Part shown: positions 15,317 through 64,000 of the stretch, in pieces
Layout of the letters: each line of letters begins with the position of its first letter
Numbering within the stretch: the stretch's first letter is position 1
IMG/VR virus record: IMGVR_UViG_3300048998_000202
From: a virus
Lineage: Duplodnaviria; Caudoviricetes
Reading direction: 5' to 3' (one strand)
DNA: 64,000 nt
Notes under the pieces: model-generated
Told to the model about the DNA's origin: nothing
What the model saw: only the letters and a program-made list of their open reading frames with translations
Database searches by the model: none
Position numbers and translations under genes: made by a program

Positions 15317-15452
15317 AAAGGATCCCCTCCCACAAGGAGAGGGGATCCATCCGGGTCTTCTAGAGACCCTCCCTGCCATGCCATGACCTGCCACACCCTG
15401 CCAAGCCCTACCGGGCCGAGCCCTGCCACACCTTGCGACCCTGACTCTATCA
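15317..15452 (-). ncRNA. GGY-NN repeat small-RNA cassette A
   Basis: TGATAGAGT, 12 pentamers (NN: GT AG TC CC AG TT AG GT AG AT AT AG), then hairpins. Confidence 0.8.
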
Positions 15453-15713
15453 AGACTTAGGCGGATCATCCGTCTCGGGATAGATCTGGTTGTGGACTTC
15501 CACATAGTGGGCCCCTTCCAGCAGCGAGGCGTTGCCCGGCTTCCACGACCAGAAGAAGCTGTCGTCCACCACGACCTTCACTCGCTGCCCCAGACCCCTC
15601 AGGTCTTCCAATCGCCAGACGTACTTCACCGAGGGGTCCCTGGGGTTGATCTCCCTCTCCCTGCACCAGTCCTCGAACTGGTGCAGGGAGTTGGTGAGAA
15701 CCAGGGTGATCAT
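15450..15713 (-). CDS. small hypothetical protein
   Basis: MITLVLTN...; ATG overlaps the DinG stop. Confidence 0.6.
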   Translation of the reverse strand: MITLVLTNSLHQFEDWCREREINPRDPSVKYVWRLEDLRGLGQRVKVVVDDSFFWSWKPGNASLLEGAHYVEVHNQIYPETDDPPKS

Positions 15714-17728
15714 CAGGCGGCCTGTCCGAAGGGGCGGCCCTCGAAGAACGCCTGCACGTCGGCGAGCTCGGTGGAGACCGGGAAGTCCGGCAGCGCGGTG
15801 ACGATGCCCCGGCCGTACGGGGTGCTGGTCAGACGAGAGTCCAGAACGGCCACCACACCCCGGTCGGTGGTGGTACGGATCAGGCGGCCGATGGCCTGCT
15901 CCAGAGACAGGGTCATCATCGGGATGGCCAGCGAGCTGAAGGGACGGCGTCCAGCCCGCTCCTCGGCCAGCGAGCGGGCCCGGTAGATCGGGTCGGACGG
16001 AACCGGGAACGGGAGCTTGTCGATGATCACCAGGCGACACGCATTGCCCGGGATGTCCACCCCGACGAAGAAGCTCTTCAAGGCGAACAACACGCTGTGC
16101 TCGTCCTCCCTGAAGATCCGGGCGAGCTGCTTGTTGCTCCGACCATCACCTTGCATCATCGTGGTCAGCCCCCGGTCGGCCAGGCGGTCCGCCAGGTCTT
16201 CGTACGCAGCCTCCATGGCCTTCCTGGAGGTGTAGAGCAGCAAGGCGCCACCCTGGGCCGCGTCGACCAGGGAGAGAGTCGTCTGAACCGCGTAGCCGCT
16301 CCAGGAGGCGTACTCCTTGGGCGAGGGCACCGCCGGTCCAGGGACGAACATGCCGCCCTGCTTCCGGAGATCGAAGGGGGTGCCGACGTCGACCGTCCCG
16401 GCGTCCCACAGGCCCAGGGTGCGCTTGATGTAGGTGAAGTCGCCGTTGCCCTGGCGGTCCTTGCCCGCCGAAAGAGTCGCGGACATCACGATCGAGGGGG
16501 TCTCGTCCCAGAGCATCTTCTTCAGGAAGGGGGCGACGTCCACGGGGGCGATCTTCAGGCGCCAGTAGTCGTTGTCCCGGACCTTGTAGCCCTCGACCCA
16601 GCGGACACGCTCGTGGTCCTCGGAGAGCAGCAGCTCCTCCAGGGTCTCCAAGGCGTTGCGGATCCGGGCCTGGAGCAGCTTGAGCTTGGCCTGCTGCCGG
16701 TCGTGGTCGACTTCGATCTTGATCCCGGTGAGGTCCAGGTAGACCGACTTCAGCAGGTCGCCCAGGTCCGCGAAGGGCTCGAAGTTCTCGGTGAACCAGC
16801 TCTGGGTCAGCGCGTTGCCGACCAGCTCGGACATCAGTCCGTCCATCCGGTTCATGATCAGCACGCAGGAGTCGACACGGTCGGTCAGGTCACCACCGTG
16901 TACGGCCGTGAAGGTCATCGCGTCCCGGATCAGCAGGGAGACGCCGCGCGGGGTGAAGTCCCGGCCGAGCGCGTTGGCCGCGTACTCCGGCAGCTCGTGG
17001 CCCTCGTCGAAGAGCACCACCCCACGGTCGCCGAGCATGGTGAGCGGCGGGGTGTTCTCTCCCCGGGTCTTCTCCTGTATCACCAGGTCGGTCATCAGCA
17101 TGGCCTGGTTGGTGACCACCAGGTCGGATTCCAGGCCCTTGCGCTTGGCCTTCTCTGCGTAGCAGATCTCCCCGAAGGGGCACTCGGACTTCCCCGGGCA
17201 CTCGGCGGAGGAGCTGGCCAGCTTGGACCAGGTGAAGTTGTCGATCTCGACGTCAAAGTGCTCGCGGTCGCCGGAGTGCTCCTCGTCGACCTTCAGCTCG
17301 GCCCGGACGGCCTCGGCGGTCTCGTCACGCTCCATGTCGTCGCTGTTCAGCTTGACCTGGCAGGCGTAGTTGGAGCGGCCCTTGACCAGGGCCCAGGTGA
17401 AGGGGATGCCGGACTTCTCGGCCAGGAAGGGCAGGTCCTTGGTGGCGTACTGCTCCTGAAGGGCCTTGGTGGCCGTGGCGACAATGATGCGCTGGCCCTT
17501 GTGCAGCGCCTGGATCAGCGCCGGGGTGACCCCACCCAGGGACTTGCCGGTACCGCAGCCCGCCTGGACGTACAGGGACTCGCCCTTGGCCAGGGCCTGC
17601 TCGATCGCGGAGGCCATCTTCTGCTGCGGCTCGCGGGGCTCGTAGCCCGGCAGGTGCTTCGCGAAGTTCACCTCGACGGCGGAGAAGCTGGCGGGTATGT
17701 CGCGGGTCTCGGTCGGGGTGACGGTCAC
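15713..17728 (-). CDS. dinG: DinG/YoaA-family helicase with Fe-S cysteines
   Basis: QAGCGTGKS, KGRSNYAC, CPGKSECPFGEIC, FDEGHEL, MSATL, IDKLPF, QAIGRLIR. Confidence 0.93.
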   Translation of the reverse strand: MTVTPTETRDIPASFSAVEVNFAKHLPGYEPREPQQKMASAIEQALAKGESLYVQAGCGTGKSLGGVTPALIQALHKGQRIIVATATKALQEQYATKDLPFLAEKSGIPFTWALVKGRSNYACQVKLNSDDMERDETAEAVRAELKVDEEHSGDREHFDVEIDNFTWSKLASSSAECPGKSECPFGEICYAEKAKRKGLESDLVVTNQAMLMTDLVIQEKTRGENTPPLTMLGDRGVVLFDEGHELPEYAANALGRDFTPRGVSLLIRDAMTFTAVHGGDLTDRVDSCVLIMNRMDGLMSELVGNALTQSWFTENFEPFADLGDLLKSVYLDLTGIKIEVDHDRQQAKLKLLQARIRNALETLEELLLSEDHERVRWVEGYKVRDNDYWRLKIAPVDVAPFLKKMLWDETPSIVMSATLSAGKDRQGNGDFTYIKRTLGLWDAGTVDVGTPFDLRKQGGMFVPGPAVPSPKEYASWSGYAVQTTLSLVDAAQGGALLLYTSRKAMEAAYEDLADRLADRGLTTMMQGDGRSNKQLARIFREDEHSVLFALKSFFVGVDIPGNACRLVIIDKLPFPVPSDPIYRARSLAEERAGRRPFSSLAIPMMTLSLEQAIGRLIRTTTDRGVVAVLDSRLTSTPYGRGIVTALPDFPVSTELADVQAFFEGRPFGQAA

Positions 17729-19066: not shown

Positions 19067-19963
19067 GTGACGATCGAGCGCAGGGCCTCGCCCTTCGACT
19101 CCATCCGGTACGTGGATCCGGACTTCGGCGAGTGCTGGTACGCCCGGGAACTGATGCCGCTGATGGGGTACTCCCTGTGGCGCCACTTCAACTCCGTCAT
19201 CGGCCGGGCCCGGACCTCCATGAGCAACGACGGCCACGACGTCCGGGAGCACTTCTGGCTGATCAAACGGCCTGCCGAGGTTAATGTCGACCGGTCGACA
19301 AAAACCTCTGACCAGGGAGGACGTCCCTCTGTCGACTTTCGACTGAGCCGCCACGCCTGCTACTTCATCGCCATGAACGGCGACCCGAAGAAAGAGCAGG
19401 TAGCGCTCGCGCAGGGCTACTTCGTCGGCCAGACGGTGAAGATGGAGCAGATCGAGAGGGCTATCCAGGCGCCCCCATCTCCTCCCGTGGCGCTTCCGCC
19501 GATGCCCAGTCACATCGAAGCCCTGCGGGGCTGGGCGGACGCCCTGGAGGGCCAGCAGAGGGCCGAGCAGGTCGCTCTGGAGGCCCAGCGCCTCGCGGAG
19601 GAACTGCGCCCCCCTGCGGAGGCGTGGAACGCCCTGGCGGCAGCCGGAGGGGACTGCTCGGTGGCCGAGGCCGCCGCGATCCTCAACCGGGATCCCGGCA
19701 TCGTCACCGGTCCGGCCCGGCTGTTCCGGTGGCTGCGTGAGATAGGCATCGTCTACCGGCGGCCCAACGATCAACTCGTGCCGTACTCCCAGCACCTGAC
19801 GCACGTACGGCTCCGGCCGACCAACGGGGGCGCCACCGAGGTCCGGATCACGCCGGACGGGCTGGTGTGGATTCAGCAGCGGATGCGTCAGGAGCAGCAG
19901 CGTCCGGCACTGACGATCGTGCCGGACCAGAAAGCCGATGTGGTTCCGATACGTAGGACCTGA
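19067..19963 (+). CDS. phage antirepressor (BRO/DinD-like N-terminus plus ANT/KilAC C-terminus)
   Basis: SPFDSIR, WYARELMPLMGY, LSRHACYFIAMNGDPKKEQVALAQGYF; SVAEAAAIL..RLFRWLR..VRITPDGL. Confidence 0.88.
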   Translation: MTIERRASPFDSIRYVDPDFGECWYARELMPLMGYSLWRHFNSVIGRARTSMSNDGHDVREHFWLIKRPAEVNVDRSTKTSDQGGRPSVDFRLSRHACYFIAMNGDPKKEQVALAQGYFVGQTVKMEQIERAIQAPPSPPVALPPMPSHIEALRGWADALEGQQRAEQVALEAQRLAEELRPPAEAWNALAAAGGDCSVAEAAAILNRDPGIVTGPARLFRWLREIGIVYRRPNDQLVPYSQHLTHVRLRPTNGGATEVRITPDGLVWIQQRMRQEQQRPALTIVPDQKADVVPIRRT

Positions 19964-20063
19964 TAGAGTCAAGTCTTGCAGGGCACGGTAGGGCTAGGCT
20001 AGGCAAGGCCCGGCGCGGCAGGGCACGGCATGGAAGGGCGTCATCCTTCGGGGTGGCGCCCTC
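19961..20063 (+). ncRNA. GGY-NN repeat small-RNA cassette B
   Basis: TGATAGAGTCAAGTCTTGC, 10 pentamers (NN: AC AG TA TA AA CC GC AG AC AT), hairpin AGGGCGTCATCC-TTC-GGGTGGCGCCCT. Confidence 0.85.
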
Positions 20064-20825
20064 AGTCGTTTGACCACAGACATGGCGAAGGCCCCCAGCT
20101 CCACGAGTTGCTGGGGGCCCTGCTGTGCCCGGATCGGGGCCGCCCAGGCGGACGGGCTATGCTCCGCGTTCGCTGCCTCTGCGCTTGACGACGCAGTACC
20201 GGCGTAACGAGGACTTCCCCTACGCCCTTGTTTTCCGGGCTGGCAAGAGGACGTAGCTCGCCATGGTCGGCTCGGATGTGCGTCCGAGGTGCCCGGTCAC
20301 GCCGTCGAGTTCTCCCAAGACGGCGCGGATCTATGGTGCCCCGTTCCGGCCACAGGAGGGGCGGGCCTGCCGTTCGGACGGTCTAACGAGACCGCACGGC
20401 CTGAGACACGCGAGACCGTGCTTCCCCTCAGGGGCCGACTTCCCGGAACTCGAAGGGGAACCCAGGTCATCGGCTGATCTCACGTGCGTCTTGGGTGCCC
20501 CCATATGGCCACAGGAGGGGACGAACCTGATGTGCGGGAAACGGAAGCAACCCTGGCCGTGTGTCCGACAACTGCGAAGAAGCGGACACCGTACGGGGAA
20601 GGCGATTTGCACGCCGACACGAACTCCCTAGGTGGGACATCGGGAGGTGACGCGGGCTCCGCCCCGAACTCCCACCGGGGTTTCACCCTCCCCGCTCGGG
20701 CGACCAGAGACTTCTTCAGCTCCTGGTCGCCGTCGCGCCGTGCATCCTACCGAGCTGATCCACGAACATCGGCTCGGGCTGACGAGAAAGACGCTACTCC
20801 AACGAATGCCGGAGTAGCAAGTCGA

Positions 20826-54004: not shown

Positions 54005-54038
54005 TCACCCCTTCTTCGGACTCAGGAGATCCAGGACA
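54005..54038 (-). promoter_or_regulatory. candidate late promoter TGTC-N20-GAAGGGGTGA
   Basis: Upstream of the fibre gene, right after the cassette C hairpin. Confidence 0.7.
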
Positions 54039-54041
54039 TGG

Positions 54042-54151
54042 CTGAGGGCGCCACCCCGAAGGATGACGCCCTCCCCTGCCGCGCCGCGCCTCGCCCTGCC
54101 ATGCCGAGCCTAGCCGTGCCGTGCCGCGCCGTGCAAAACCTGACTCTATCA
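54042..54151 (-). ncRNA. GGY-NN repeat small-RNA cassette C
   Basis: TGATAGAGT, 11 GGC-NN pentamers (GC AC AC TA TC AT AG GA GC GC AG), hairpin nearly identical to cassette B. Confidence 0.85.
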
Positions 54152-55982: not shown

Positions 55983-56086
55983 GAAGGCCCGCTCCCCACG
56001 GGCGGGCCTTCGTGCACACTCATCAGGATTTTAAAATCCTGTCTCCTGCTGCTGCGCTGCTCCACGCTGCGGAGCGGACTCTATCA
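55983..56086 (-). ncRNA. non-repeat small-RNA cassette F
   Basis: Same TGATAGAGT head and GAAGG...CCTTC terminal hairpin; body has hairpins rather than pentamers. Confidence 0.5.
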
Positions 56087-56674
56087 GGACGTGGGGGTCT
56101 GCGACCGCTCGGTCAGCATCTGCTGGAGACGGTTCAGGGCCTGCTCCTGCTTCTCGACCTTGTCCGCCAGTTCGGCAGTGGTCTCCTTGGTCTCCCGGCG
56201 GACGGCCTGGGTCTCCTTGCGGGCGGCCTTCAGCCCCTCCTCCAGCCGATCCTGCCGCCGCGACAGACGCCGGGTGATGTCCGAGACGGCCTGGAGAGCC
56301 CCGGCCTGAGCGTCGTACACCTGCCCCTGCTGCGGAGTCAGCTCGTTGCGGTCGGCCTTGGTCAGAAGATCTATGGCCGTACGGATCCGGCGGTTGGCCT
56401 TCTTGGTCTGGTACCGGGCCGCGCCCCCGTGCTCGGAGGCGTGCATGACGCGGTAGCCCACTTCCCGCTCGTTGGTCAGAGCCCGCTGGTGCTTGTCCAG
56501 CAGCTCCTTCTCCGCACGTCTCACCGGGCTGCGGTCGAGCCGGATGTTGATTCCGGCCCACTCCGAGAGCTCCTCGTACGTGACGACGGTGTCCGGATCG
56601 AGGTCGCGCAGACCCTCATAGATCAGGACCCAACGGGCGACGTCGCCCTTGGGCTCGAACGGCTTGGTGCCCAT
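56084..56674 (-). CDS. partner protein of the RAMP-like gene (wHTH-like N-terminus, coiled-coil C-terminus)
   Basis: VVTYEELSEWAG..VRRAEKEL..NEREVGYRV; heptad-rich C-terminus; co-oriented, 44 nt downstream. Confidence 0.65.
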   Translation of the reverse strand: MGTKPFEPKGDVARWVLIYEGLRDLDPDTVVTYEELSEWAGINIRLDRSPVRRAEKELLDKHQRALTNEREVGYRVMHASEHGGAARYQTKKANRRIRTAIDLLTKADRNELTPQQGQVYDAQAGALQAVSDITRRLSRRQDRLEEGLKAARKETQAVRRETKETTAELADKVEKQEQALNRLQQMLTERSQTPTS

Positions 56675-56718: not shown

Positions 56719-57297
56719 TCAGCCCTGGATCTGGGTGACCTCGACGTCGAACCGCCCGAACCGGGGACGGTAGTCACCCAGTCCGATCATCTGGCCCGCC
56801 TTCTCGGCGATGCTGGTGATCTGGTCCAGGTCGAGCTGGCCGTCGTCCACGATCAGGTCGGCCTCCAGCGCCCACTGCGGGAACTTGGGCCGGGTGCGCA
56901 TGACGCGCGAGGTGGTGACCCCCACGGAGAGCCGGGAGACGAAGTTCTTGTCCTTCCACAGTCCCTCGACCGTACGGGATCCGCTGTAGCCCAGGGGGTG
57001 GATCTCGTTGACGACGACGACACCTCGCTCGACGGCCGGGCCCTGCCGGGTCATCTTGGCCGCCTTGATCAGGCAGGCGTGGATGTTGGCGCCGGGGATG
57101 TACGGACCGGTCTCCTCGTCGAAGTACAGGCCGCCCTCGAACTCGATGCGGGCCATCTCCTCGTGGTCGGACTCGGTCTTGATGCGCTTGCCGGAGACCT
57201 TTTTGAGCTGCTTGGTGATGGTCGCCAGCGGGTCGGACAGTTGCGCGTTGTGCATCAGCAGCGACGTGGTTCCGATGATGGTCAGGCGGACCTGCAT
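56719..57297 (-). CDS. RAMP/Cas7(Csm3)-like RNA-binding protein, candidate effector of the GGY-NN RNAs
   Basis: N-terminal strand VRLTIIGTTSLLMH, PYIPGANIHACL (cf. Csm3 PYIPGSSLKG), Gly-rich loop GLGDYRPRFGRF; RBS before ATG at 57297. Confidence 0.75.
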   Translation of the reverse strand: MQVRLTIIGTTSLLMHNAQLSDPLATITKQLKKVSGKRIKTESDHEEMARIEFEGGLYFDEETGPYIPGANIHACLIKAAKMTRQGPAVERGVVVVNEIHPLGYSGSRTVEGLWKDKNFVSRLSVGVTTSRVMRTRPKFPQWALEADLIVDDGQLDLDQITSIAEKAGQMIGLGDYRPRFGRFDVEVTQIQG

Positions 57298-57334
57298 GAG
57301 TTCTCCCTGGTGTCGGTACTCTCTGGCGCCACCG

Positions 57335-57364
57335 AACATACTCCAAGGATTGTTGGAGTGTCAA
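57335..57364 (-). promoter_or_regulatory. sigma70-type promoter TTGACA-N18-TATGTT with a palindromic operator as spacer
   Basis: Spacer is CTCCAA-CAATCC-TTGGAG. Confidence 0.7.
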
Positions 57365-57370
57365 CGGGGC

Positions 57371-57874
57371 AAAACGAAGGGCCCGGGATCCGAAGATCCC
57401 GGGCCCTTCTCCATGCCTCGCCGTGTCGAGCCTTGCCATGCCGGGCCATGCCCGACCAAGCCGTGCCACGCAAGACTTGACTCTGTCAGTTCCACCACGA
57501 TCTGTCAAACGACGAAGGGGACCACCCGGAGGTGATCCCCTTCTCCCTGCCGTGCCTTACCCGGCCCTGCCTAGCCATGCCACACCGCACCACGCCCCGC
57601 AGGTCTTGACGTTATCAAGACCCTTCGGAGCCGTCAATGACGAAGGGGCCCTCCGTAGAGGACCCCTTCTCCTATGCCAAACCTAGCCATACCCTACCCT
57701 GCCACGCCAAACCTAGCCAAGCCATGCCCTGCAAGACTTGACTCTGTCAGCTCCTACGGCATCTGTCAACGACGGAGGGGCCCCACCGTAGTGGAGCCCC
57801 TCTCCCATGCCCGGCCTTACCCAGCCCTGCCTTGCCTCACCTCGGCCAGCCGTACCGAGACCTTGACTGTATCA
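57371..57874 (-). ncRNA. array D: four tandem GGY-NN small-RNA cassettes (D1 57874-57774, D2 57769-57642, D3 57637-57514, D4 57508-57371)
   Basis: Each has a TGA-extended -10 (D2-D4 with TTGACR 17 nt upstream), 10-11 pentamers and a GC hairpin. Confidence 0.88.
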
Positions 57875-62237: not shown

Positions 62238-62358
62238 TGGACGATCGGCGCCACGACTCAGGTCCGTGGGGGACGGAAGGAATCGGCGCCGCCTCGTGCA
62301 CGGGGAGCGTGGCACGGTGGGGTAGACGCTGTCAAGGCGAATGTGTTCCACTGGAGAG

Positions 62359-62598
62359 ATGGAAGATCAGCACACGATGCAGACAGACACCCCCACCGAC
62401 GACCTGAAGCTGTACGGGATCTCCGAGCTGGCGGATCGCTGGAAGGTCTCTAAGCAGCGGGCTGACGAGATCGCCTCCAAGCGCCTCCCACAGCCCCTCA
62501 CGCTCAAGATGGGCCGCATCTGGACAGAACTCCAGGTGGAGAACTTCGAGAGAGGGTGGGTCCGTAAGACGGGGCGTCACATCGTCCCCAGGACTTGA
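62359..62598 (+). CDS. small AlpA/excisionase-like HTH protein heading array E
   Basis: LYGISELADRWKVSKQRADEI..LPQP..GRIW...VE; GGAGA RBS before ATG at 62359. Confidence 0.75.
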   Translation: MEDQHTMQTDTPTDDLKLYGISELADRWKVSKQRADEIASKRLPQPLTLKMGRIWTELQVENFERGWVRKTGRHIVPRT

Positions 62599-63362
62599 TA
62601 TCGTCAGGGGTTACTGGGCTCGGCAGGGCTAGGTAGGGCAGGACTGGGCACGGCATGGGAGGGGCTTCCTACGGGGAGCCCCTCAGCCGTTGACAGGCGC
62701 TCTTGGGAGTGACAGAGTCAGGTCTTGCAGGACCACACGTGGGCGTGTGGAGAAGGGGCGCTTCTTCCAGGAGGCGCCCCTTCGTCGTTTGACAGACCGG
62801 CACGGGGGTGACAAAGTCAGGTCTTGCATGATGGGAAGGACACACGGTTGGTTTCTGAGGCCGGAACCGTGTGGATGCGATCGGCCCTCAAGGCCGTGGA
62901 CGCGTCCGAAGGCCCCCTCTGAAGATTCCTGGAGGGGGCCTTCGTTCGTTTGACCGGACGACATTAGGGCTGACAGGGTCAGTTCTTACAGGGCACCGTC
63001 TGGTTGGGCACGGTAAGGCATGGTGGGGTAAGGCACGGCTGGGCAGGGGAGGGCGACCATCTTCGGATGGTCGCCCTCAGCCGTTTGACAGGTGCGGGTG
63101 GAGCTGACAGAGTCAAGTCTTGCAGGGCCGGGCCCGGTAGGGCGTGGTTTGGCGTGGTGTGGTTGGGCAACGCATGGCATGGCATGGCAGGGGAAAGGCC
63201 CCAGGATTTTAAAATCCTGGGGCCTTTCGTTACGCCCTGAAGGAACTGATAGAGTCATGGTCTCGGCAGGCCGAGGCTAGGTAAGGCACGGCGGGGCAAG
63301 GCACCGCCCGGTAGGGCAAGGCATGGGGAAGGCCCCCTCGGATTCTCCCGAGGGGGCCTTCC
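62596..63362 (+). ncRNA. array E: six tandem cassettes (E1 62596-62684, E2 62690-62783, E3 62789-62943, E4 62950-63078, E5 63085-63228, E6 63247-63362); E2 and E3 lack pentamers
   Basis: Repeating promoter-like head, 8-13 GGY-NN pentamers and GC hairpin. Confidence 0.88.
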
Positions 63363-63387
63363 GTTGTCCTGAAGCGACTACTCTCCG

Positions 63388-64000
63388 TCACGCCTTGGTG
63401 ATCGTCGCGATGCCCCTGGGGTTCAAAATGGACATATTGACCATTTCGTCAAATACCCATCCCTTCCAGAAGGCTTCGACCATGTGGTTCTCTTCCACGT
63501 CCAAACTGTACAGAACGGGGAAAACGCCCAAGAAGTTGGGCTCCGGGGTGAGGAAGACCTTGCCCTGCGGGACGATGATCGACCGCTGGATCTGGAACTC
63601 GCCGAACGAGGTGATGGTCTCGCCCGCGACGACCCGGTCCTTGAAGGCCCAGCCCGTCTGGTTGATGTCCCACCGGTACAGGTCCCGGAAGTCGAACGGG
63701 TTGATCAGGATCCGCGCCGACTGGAGCTCGTGCATGTCCGTCATGGCGACGGCCGAGTACAGCGAGCCCGGCGTCAGGTAGCCCGACGCCTCGGTGATGT
63801 TGTGGTTCGGGGTGACCGTGTGGTCCGGGCGGGTGGCGTAGTCCGTCAGCGCCGCCTGGAGCAGTACGAGCAGCCGGGTGTCCTCCTGCTTGAGGATCGC
63901 CTGCTTGGTCTCGTCCTGGGCCTGCTCGACTGCGTTGATACGCAGGTAGAACAGGTCCTCCTTGCGGATCGCGGGGCGCGAGGCGATACGGAAGAACCGC
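63388..64000 (-). CDS. major capsid protein (5' end outside the window)
   Basis: Open frame to the window edge: FRIASRPAIRKEDL..NAVEQAQDETKQAILKQED..IVPQGKVF..GWVFDEMVNMSILNPRGIA, an HK97-fold capsid pattern. Confidence 0.85.
   Translation of the reverse strand, partial: RFFRIASRPAIRKEDLFYLRINAVEQAQDETKQAILKQEDTRLLVLLQAALTDYATRPDHTVTPNHNITEASGYLTPGSLYSAVAMTDMHELQSARILINPFDFRDLYRWDINQTGWAFKDRVVAGETITSFGEFQIQRSIIVPQGKVFLTPEPNFLGVFPVLYSLDVEENHMVEAFWKGWVFDEMVNMSILNPRGIATITKA

What the first reader, a model, noticed from the sequence alone, without database searches (positions are those of the whole stretch)
63247..63537. Guide E6 encodes a capsid peptide via a gapped code, and the phage's own capsid gene mismatches it only at Leu/Ser codons
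E6 dinucleotides, including the leader TC, read TC AG GA TA AA AC GG AA AC CC AG AA. The + strand at 63500-63534, read as two bases then skip one, gives TC AA CT TA AG AC GG AA AC CC AA AA. That is 8/12 dinucleotides and 19/24 nt identical. As antisense codon positions 1-2 the guide spells F-L-G-V-F-P-V-[F/L]-Y-S-L-[D/E]; the capsid protein has FLGVFPVLYSLD, compatible at 12/12. All four mismatched units are six-fold-degenerate residues: TTG (twice) and AGT, which are rare in this GC-rich genome, where the guide expects CTN/TCN, plus one CTG where it expects TTN. Inference: the guide targets the capsid gene of related competitor phages, skipping wobble bases, and the owner has changed the only synonymous positions that can break pairing.
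Basis: partly seen in the sequence, partly recalled or inferred. Interest (0 to 1): 0.98.

Follow-up and report, generated by a model that had tools for sequence, protein, structure and literature searches.

The report
VIPR guide RNA against sibling-phage capsids
E6 is a guide RNA of a VIPR system (an RNA-guided DNA-silencing system first described in 2026) in a large soil actinophage; it reads a conserved capsid-gene motif of sibling phages, and the owner's own capsid gene avoids it through synonymous Leu/Ser codon-family switches.

Summary
E6 (63247-63362, +) carries 13 GGY-NN pentamers. Read two-on/one-off, its NN match + 63500-63534 at 19/24. This is the only such site in the window (shuffles p about 0.001-0.004). 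As antisense codon positions 1-2 it fits capsid FLGVFPVLYSLD at 12/12 (shuffles at most 9/13).

The system is already known. It is VIPR (bioRxiv 10.64898/2026.04.26.720920, .720927 and 10.64898/2026.10.15.759431): Vipr protein plus GGY/NN vrRNAs, with a 1-nt skip aligned to the wobble base, silencing competing phages. The scan had already met VIPR on other DNA. The window encodes a Vipr homologue (56719-57339, -; E 3e-35 to SUSP1 Vipr, PDB 36pp) and 11 vrRNA genes.

E6 matches the capsid gene of most relatives at 23/24 (70 of 113 distinct contexts). It hits once, in the capsid gene, in each of five complete sibling genomes. The owner's copy has the worst synonymous haplotype (19/24, below the published 80% criterion). 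Three of the fragment's six minority-family codons lie in the target (Fisher p 0.008). The only orthologue (L126) shows the reciprocal pattern. A relative's helicase-directed guide shows the same Ser/Arg trick.

Verdict: a new member of a known kind. Self-immunity through six-fold-degenerate codons, linked to the guide, appears unreported.

The parts
63247..63362 (+). E6 vrRNA gene. It has a promoter box CTGATAGAGTCA (-10 TAGAGT at 63250-63255), a leader pentamer GTCTC (NN = TC at 63263-63264), 12 GGY-NN pentamers at 63265-63324, and a purine-rich GGGGAAGG tail with a 15-bp GC hairpin (arms 63327-63341 / 63348-63362).
   Evidence: (I19). The hairpin sits between the convergent E6 and capsid genes. 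The fold gives -65 kcal/mol, z = -4.6.
63500..63534 (-). The owner's own copy of the E6 target: capsid codons FLGVFPVLYSLD. It matches E6 at 19/24 (8/12 units), with mismatches at TTG, AGT, CTG and TTG.
63388..64000 (-). C-terminal 203 codons of the major capsid protein gene. The gene runs off the window.
   Evidence: major capsid protein of cluster C-like mycobacteriophages, Gordonia phages and Rhodococcus phage E3. (phrog_2522 major head protein, E 1e-65).
56719..57339 (-). vipr gene (206 aa), the RAMP-family effector that would load E6.
   Evidence: phmmer E 3.3e-35 to SUSP1 Vipr (PDB 36pp_D), covering residues 18-202. The C-terminal GDYRPRFGRF aligns with GDWRPRFGRF; phrog_4652, E 1e-58.
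56084..56674 (-). Candidate vap (accessory) gene, 196 aa: an N-terminal winged-helix-like domain followed by a long coiled coil.
   Evidence: It sits next to vipr and co-occurs with it in G002 and G003. AlphaFold model has pLDDT 80. Foldseek finds only weak MarR/GntR-type wHTH matches, E 0.01-0.07.
57376..57874 (-). Four tandem vrRNA genes directly upstream of vipr, with repeats at 57856-57807, 57728-57674, 57596-57547 and 57467-57413.
62596..63228 (+). Three further vrRNA genes upstream of E6 (repeats 62617-62656, 62992-63056, 63126-63190), interspersed with two units that have the same promoter but no pentamers.
   Evidence: No targets were found.
19961..20087 (+). Solitary vrRNA gene.
54029..54151 (-). 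Solitary vrRNA gene.
15325..15452 (-). Solitary vrRNA gene just downstream of the DinG-like helicase gene.

Best explanation
E6 is one of at least 11 vrRNA genes of a type II-like VIPR system carried by a roughly 155-kb, 65% GC actinophage.

How it most likely works, following the published system: Vipr protomers polymerise on the RNA, hide each GGY, and present the NN dinucleotides. The NN pair with double-stranded DNA in a 2-on/1-off register. The bound complex blocks transcription.

E6's NN read codon positions 1-2 of the conserved capsid motif FLGVFPVLYSLD. In a mixed infection it would therefore bind and silence the major capsid gene of sibling phages, whatever their wobble bases.

The owner encodes the same peptide. 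It uses the alternative codon family at every six-fold-degenerate position (TTG/AGT where the guide expects CTN/TCN, and CTG where it expects TTN). That is the largest number of mismatches synonymous change allows, and it drops the self-match below the level seen for natural targets.

The guide gene lies 174 nt from its own immune allele. The two are therefore inherited together, like a poison and its antidote.

Shown here: the sequence relationships, the Vipr homology and the codon statistics. Inferred: expression, RNP formation, binding, silencing, and selection as the cause of the recoding.
For: Known mechanism: GGY/NN vrRNAs, a 1-nt skip aligned to the wobble base, dsDNA binding and silencing of competing phages (bioRxiv 10.64898/2026.04.26.720920 and .720927). 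Natural targets are defined there as at least 80% NN match, and no self-hit reached 80%.

System membership:
- Vipr homologue, E 3.3e-35.
- GGYNN arrays occur only in the vipr-positive relatives G002 and G003, not in the vipr-less G001 and G004.

The match is real:
- E6 versus its own capsid is unique in the window, p about 0.001-0.004.
- The peptide fit is 12/12, against at most 9/13 for shuffles.
- Of 422 arrays from 136 loci, only the E6 family hits anything in a 3.7-million-residue six-frame database.

Non-self fits better than self:
- 23/24 in 70 of 113 distinct capsid contexts; the owner's haplotype appears in 1 of 113.
- One hit per complete relative genome, always in the capsid gene, with 1-2 mismatches and none for the reversed control.
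- 24/26 in G001, G003 and G004.

Recoding of the owner's copy:
- TTG is 9.8% of Leu codons and AGT 5.6% of Ser codons.
- 3 of the 6 minority-family codons among 39 six-fold sites lie in the 4 target sites, Fisher p 0.008.

Orthologue L126:
- Its capsid protein segment is identical and 90% identical in nucleotides.
- All three Leu family switches between the two phages fall in the target (p 0.014).
- Guide and own target are flipped at Leu155 and Leu161, so each guide still mismatches its own gene. Scores are 19/24 for each self pair, and 22/24 and 20/24 across.

Independent second case: guide G002:+149190 matches the window's DinG-like helicase gene at 18/20 (LLYTSRKAM). G002's own copy, 911 nt from that guide, has AGC/CGC where the guide expects TC/AG, giving 15/20.

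Linkage: 3 of 41 family guides have a significant peptide match within 2.5 kb of themselves.
Against: - There are no expression, binding or silencing data.
- No IMG/VR contig matches E6 at 24/24. The guide's TT at Leu161 disagrees with about 93% of relatives.
- Mismatch tolerance of Vipr is not quantified in the preprints I read. 19/24 (79%) lies only just under the bioinformatic 80% cut-off, so residual self-binding cannot be excluded.
- L129 has the owner's capsid haplotype but no E6. The haplotype may therefore predate the guide, or be an escape allele.
- Only two E6 genes exist in the collections searched, so the covariation rests on few events.
- The other 10 guides in the window have no identified target.
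- E6's -35 element is poor, and its second repeat is GCC rather than GGY.
Confidence: 0.75

Rival explanations
1. Autoregulation. E6 acts on the phage's own capsid gene. The partial 19/24 match gives weak or timed repression of late structural genes, and the similarity to relatives' capsids only reflects shared ancestry.
For: The guide sits next to, and convergent with, its own capsid gene. The self-match (79%) is close to the published 80% cut-off. VIPR is a transcriptional silencer.
Against: The owner carries the worst possible synonymous haplotype, using rare codons. The guide fits non-self better than self in both E6 carriers. The G002 helicase guide shows the same pattern. A regulator would be expected to keep or improve pairing with its own target.
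Confidence: 0.1
2. Neutral relic. E6 is a real vrRNA gene that arrived by recombination. Its mismatches with the owner's capsid are drift or hitch-hiking, not selection. The guide may be inactive or irrelevant today.
For: vrRNA content turns over rapidly between phages whose capsid proteins are identical; L121-L123 have no arrays at all. L129 shares the haplotype without E6. E6 has a weak -35 element and two imperfect GGY units.
Against: Enrichment of minority codon families in the target (p 0.008 and p 0.014). Joint frequency of the four states is about 1e-3 from family frequencies. Guide and target are flipped in concert at two Leu sites in L126. An unrecoded carrier would match at 23/24 and should silence itself.
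Confidence: 0.12
3. Chance resemblance between a periodic G-rich RNA and a coding segment. My own first reading was a TRAP-like protein sponge or a G-quadruplex RNA, with the NN as meaningless spacers.
For: 10 of the 11 guides have no hit in the window. Arrays are compositionally biased, with A-rich first NN positions.
Against: Shuffle tests. 23/24 to relatives, with a single hit per 155-kb genome. Vipr homologue present. Published biochemistry for the code.
Confidence: 0.01

Closest known systems
Type II VIPR system of Escherichia phage SUSP1 (Vipr + vap1 + vrRNAs; bioRxiv 10.64898/2026.04.26.720920 and 10.64898/2026.04.26.720927; PDB 36pp)
   Same: Vipr homologue (E 3e-35). vrRNAs of about 100 nt with 9-16 GGY/NN repeats. 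A 1-nt skip aligned to the codon wobble base. Predicted targets in competing mobile elements. A small winged-helix-like gene next to vipr. vrRNA genes in tandem beside vipr.
   Different: - The host virus is a 65% GC actinophage-like myovirus of about 155 kb.
- Each vrRNA has its own promoter box and its own hairpin. The hairpin varies in sequence, with only a conserved GAAGG...CCTTC base, instead of the invariable pseudoknot tail.
- vrRNA genes are scattered over at least five loci. Some sit beside the gene whose homologue they target.
- The target is an essential structural gene that the carrier also needs.
Self/non-self scoring of vrRNA-targeting and vipr-targeting solo vrRNAs in SUSP1-family phages (bioRxiv 10.64898/2026.10.15.759431)
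   Same: Guides aimed at close relatives. Self-match scores are lower than non-self scores, which the authors read as avoidance of autoimmunity. Targets are wobble-aligned. Guides sit at the locus of the gene they target.
   Different: There, self-immunity comes from deletion of vipr or from differences in non-coding vrRNA loci. That paper argues that wobble skipping blocks synonymous escape. Here the protein is identical, and discrimination rests on Leu/Ser/Arg codon-family switches at codon positions 1-2, which is a loophole in that argument.
Class 1 CRISPR Cas7 backbones, and virus-borne mini-CRISPR arrays used in conflicts between related viruses (the latter from my own recollection, not checked here)
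   Same: RAMP-fold protein filament on a guide RNA with periodic unpaired positions. Virus-encoded guides directed at sibling viruses.
   Different: The guide is non-contiguous (2 of every 5 nt) with a 1-nt skip in the target. There are no repeats and spacers, no adaptation genes and no nuclease in this locus.

Membership tests
VIPR system | Vipr protein (minimal RAMP with G-loop and thumb) | tested here: met
   ORF 56719-57339(-) matches SUSP1 Vipr (PDB 36pp_D) at E 3.3e-35 over 185 residues, with the G-rich C-terminal motif aligned.
VIPR system | vrRNA with 9-16 tandem GGY/NN pentamers | tested here: met
   E6 has 12 pentamers plus a degenerate leader pentamer. 10 units are perfect GGY and 2 deviate (GCC, CGC). 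The window holds 11 such units of 8-15 pentamers.
VIPR system | Target recognition by the 1-nt skip rule, with at least 80% NN match to natural targets | tested here: met
   only skip 1 gives a hit. The match is 23/24 (96%) or 24/26 (92%) to relatives' capsid genes.
VIPR system | Skipped base aligned with the codon wobble position | tested here: met
   the register coincides with the capsid frame, and the decoded peptide fits 12/12.
VIPR system | No self-target at 80% NN match or above | tested here: met
   the best self-site is 19/24 (79%) or 20/26 (77%). It is the only window site with 17 or more matches.
VIPR system | Conserved structured 3' tail (a pseudoknot in the SUSP1 clade) | tested here: inconclusive
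   every unit ends in a purine-rich stretch and a 12-16 bp GC hairpin. The hairpin sequences differ between units. A pseudoknot was not tested.
VIPR system (type II) | Adjacent vap gene predicted to bind DNA | tested here: inconclusive
   ORF 56084-56674(-) co-occurs with vipr in G002 and G003 and is modelled as a wHTH-like domain plus coiled coil. Foldseek E-values are only 0.01-0.07, and no comparison with vap1 itself was possible.
VIPR system | vrRNA expressed, bound by Vipr, and the RNP binds dsDNA and silences transcription | not testable with these tools

The most novel reading that the evidence does not exclude
In this phage family, VIPR guides aimed at essential genes shared with sibling phages are kept within about 1 kb of a synonymously recoded 'immune' allele of the same gene, as a poison-antidote pair. 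Six-fold-degenerate Leu/Ser/Arg codons are then the self/non-self determinant. They are also the one synonymous escape route that wobble skipping leaves open. Such linked pairs would create allele-level incompatibility between co-infecting siblings and could drive their divergence.
Probability: 0.55. Interest if true: 0.7.

Novelty: new member of a known kind. Interest (0 to 1): 0.5.

Why it matters
VIPR was described only in 2026, and mainly in coliphages and Pseudomonas prophages. This locus extends it to a large family of soil actinophages, some with vipr and some without.

It gives a clean natural example of a guide directed at the major capsid gene of near-identical competitors.

It also qualifies a published claim that wobble skipping prevents escape by synonymous mutation. 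Leu, Ser and Arg codon families differ at positions 1-2. Here they appear to be exactly what separates self from non-self.

That matters for understanding phage-phage exclusion. It also matters for anyone designing VIPR guides or predicting escape from them, because target sites rich in Leu, Ser or Arg are escapable without any change to the protein.

Tried and rejected
- Rfam and tRNA scans of the window found nothing.
- My first reading was a TRAP-like ring-protein sponge or a G-quadruplex RNA with meaningless spacers. I dropped it once the shuffle tests, the VIPR papers and the Vipr homologue were in hand.
- Chance is rejected.
- Searches for more E6 orthologues found only L126 in IMG/VR: leader 18-mer and guide-core pattern. 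The single metagenome hit (L201) is G-rich junk with no capsid motif.
- A search for a perfect 24/24 target in IMG/VR found none.
- The 19-mer promoter/leader pattern found nothing in IMG/VR.
- Targets for the other 10 window guides were not found in the window, in 200 related loci or in four complete relatives, with skips of 0-3, at either nucleotide or peptide level.
- Capsid-proximal guides of other relatives mostly have no hit in the C-terminal part of the capsid gene. The exception is L129@-217, at 18/22, which is borderline.
- Foldseek on the vap candidate gave only weak wHTH matches.

Full report
**What is in the sequence**

The window is 65% GC. Its right end holds the C-terminal 203 codons of a major capsid protein gene on the minus strand (63388-64000). 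The gene is related to those of cluster C mycobacteriophages, Gordonia phages and Rhodococcus phage E3.

Between 62596 and 63362, on the plus strand, lie four short units that share one layout. Seven more such units lie elsewhere in the window. Each unit has:
- a promoter box CTGAYAGAGTCA, often with TTGACA 17 nt upstream;
- a short leader;
- 8-15 pentamers with a constant GGY and a free NN;
- a purine-rich stretch;
- a GC hairpin.

E6 is the unit at 63247-63362. Its hairpin lies between E6 and the convergent capsid gene.

**Checking the observation**

The skipped bases are the wobble positions of the capsid frame.
- The site is the only one in 128,000 window positions with 17 or more matches.
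- Dinucleotide-order shuffles reach 19/24 in 0.11% of 15,000 trials. Random guides from the pooled NN reach it in 0.44%.
- At the peptide level the fit is 12/12 (12/13 with the last unit). Shuffles give at most 9.
- Skips of 0 or 2 give nothing. None of the other ten guides has a significant hit in the window.
- Among 422 arrays from 136 loci, tested against 3.7 million six-frame positions, only E6 and its one orthologue stand out.

**What it is**

My first idea was a TRAP-like protein sponge. It was wrong.

A literature search and earlier notes of this scan led to VIPR. Three 2026 preprints describe it:
- vrRNAs of 9-16 GGY/NN repeats are bound by a small RAMP protein, Vipr.
- Vipr hides GGY and presents NN.
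- The RNP binds double-stranded DNA with one skipped base per NN.
- The skipped base usually falls on the codon wobble position.
- The system silences competing phages and satellites.

The window encodes a clear Vipr homologue at 56719-57339 (-), with E 3.3e-35 to SUSP1 Vipr, PDB 36pp. Four vrRNA genes lie directly upstream of it. A 196-aa gene lies downstream and models as a winged-helix-like domain plus coiled coil. It is a plausible vap, but the fold matches are weak.

**Related phages**

IMG/VR holds hundreds of relatives with capsid segments 89-100% identical. Complete genomes are 154-166 kb.
- vipr and the 196-aa gene are present in G002 and G003. A distant copy of vipr is present in G013.
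- They are absent from eleven other complete or large relatives.
- Among the four genomes fetched whole, GGYNN arrays occur only in the two with vipr.

**What E6 targets**

- The E6 pattern with up to 3 mismatches hits once in each of five complete relatives. The hit is always in the capsid gene, with 1-2 mismatches. The reversed control gives none.
- Over 81 relatives the match is 23/24 in 30, 22 in 17, 21 in 23, 20 in 6 and 19 in 5. The owner is in the lowest class.
- In a larger sample of 113 distinct capsid contexts, 70 are at 23/24.
- No contig is at 24/24.

**Self-avoidance**

The owner's capsid has TTG, AGT and TTG where the guide expects CT, TC and CT. It has CTG where the guide expects TT. 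This is the maximum mismatch reachable by synonymous change.
- TTG is 9.8% of Leu codons and AGT 5.6% of Ser codons in this window.
- Of 39 six-fold-degenerate sites in the capsid fragment, the owner uses the family's minority codon family at 6. Three of those 6 lie in the 4 target sites (Fisher p 0.008).
- The owner's haplotype occurs in 1 of 113 other contexts.
- The only orthologous E6 is on L126. Its capsid protein segment is identical and 90% identical in nucleotides.
- All three Leu family switches between the two phages fall in the target (p 0.014).
- At Leu155 and Leu161 both the guide and the target are flipped, so each guide still mismatches its own gene. Scores are 19/24 for each self pair, and 22/24 and 20/24 across.

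An independent case supports this. A G002 guide matches this window's DinG-like helicase gene at 18/20, on the peptide LLYTSRKAM at 16215-16243. G002's own copy lies 911 nt from that guide. It carries AGC and CGC where the guide expects TC and AG, giving 15/20.

A G003 guide lies 181 nt from a gene whose homologue in G001 it fits better. In that case the own copy differs by an Ala/Glu swap.

Three of 41 family guides have a significant peptide match within 2.5 kb of themselves. At E6's position, L129 carries a different guide with the same leader. That guide reads another capsid motif, A[HQ]ILINPFD, at 18/22.

**Interpretation and limits**

E6 is best read as a VIPR guide against the capsid gene of sibling phages. 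It is kept next to a recoded, immune allele of that gene.

These points are not shown:
- expression, Vipr loading, binding or silencing;
- Vipr's mismatch tolerance, given that the self-match of 79% is just under the 80% bioinformatic cut-off;
- whether the gene was recoded in response to the guide, or the guide could only persist in a phage that already carried a mismatched allele. L129 has the haplotype without E6.

**Novelty**

The kind of system is known, and the scan has met it on other DNA. The October 2026 preprint already reports lower self-scores than non-self scores, but for guides aimed at non-coding vrRNA loci.

I found no mention of escape or self-immunity through Leu/Ser/Arg codon families in the three preprints. 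The terms leucine, serine and synonymous were searched in the October preprint, and synonymous also in the structural preprint; the April discovery preprint was read in its Results, Discussion and target-analysis methods. That preprint, and the October one, argue that wobble skipping blocks synonymous escape.

This finding is therefore a new member of a known kind, with one new and testable point.

Noticed in passing
window 16215-16243 (helicase ORF 15713-17728, minus strand): The window phage is itself a predicted victim. A vrRNA of relative G002 (IMGVR_UViG_3300044691_000566, + 149190) matches this DinG-like helicase gene at 18/20 in wobble register, on the peptide LLYTSRKAM. The window uses TCC and the rare AGG there; G002's own copy uses AGC and CGC.
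   Followed up: yes
window 62709-62790, 62808-62945 (+) and 56086-55980 (-): Three units have the same promoter box and terminator hairpins as the vrRNA genes but carry no GGY-NN pentamers. One is a short hairpin RNA. One starts with ATGATG and could be a leaderless small ORF or a structured RNA. One lies just downstream of the vap candidate.
   Followed up: no
window 62341-62598 (+): An 85-aa ORF immediately upstream of the first capsid-side vrRNA gene. Pfam gives only a faint winged-helix hint (E 0.098). It could be a small DNA-binding protein.
   Followed up: no
L129 (IMGVR_UViG_3300048999_000131), 217 nt from its capsid motif: At the position of E6, this relative carries a vrRNA with the same GGTCTC leader but a different NN string. 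The string reads another capsid motif, A[HQ]ILINPFD, at 18/22 (17/22 against its own gene). The spot downstream of the capsid gene seems to be a hot spot where capsid-directed guides are exchanged or reprogrammed.
   Followed up: partly
G003 (IMGVR_UViG_3300044816_000098) around 111557-111750: A vrRNA gene lies 181 nt from a gene encoding IFGGETYAQT. The guide fits the G001 homologue IFGGATYEQT better: 18/20 over its first ten units. Here self differs from non-self by an Ala/Glu swap, not by synonymous recoding.
   Followed up: partly
They span a wide range of GC content, some arrays reach 143 pentamers, and many have several arrays per contig.
   Followed up: partly
window 63260-63277 and 57861-57838 (-): E6 and the first vrRNA upstream of vipr share a 5' stem, CTCGG...CCGAG. 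In E6 this makes the second repeat GCC instead of GGY. It could be a 5' handle or a processing signal.
   Followed up: no
L121-L123 versus window 62596-63362: Three relatives have a capsid segment 100% identical in protein but no vrRNA genes at all near the capsid gene. G001, the complete genome that holds L123, lacks vipr. VIPR content therefore turns over much faster than the structural genes.
   Followed up: partly
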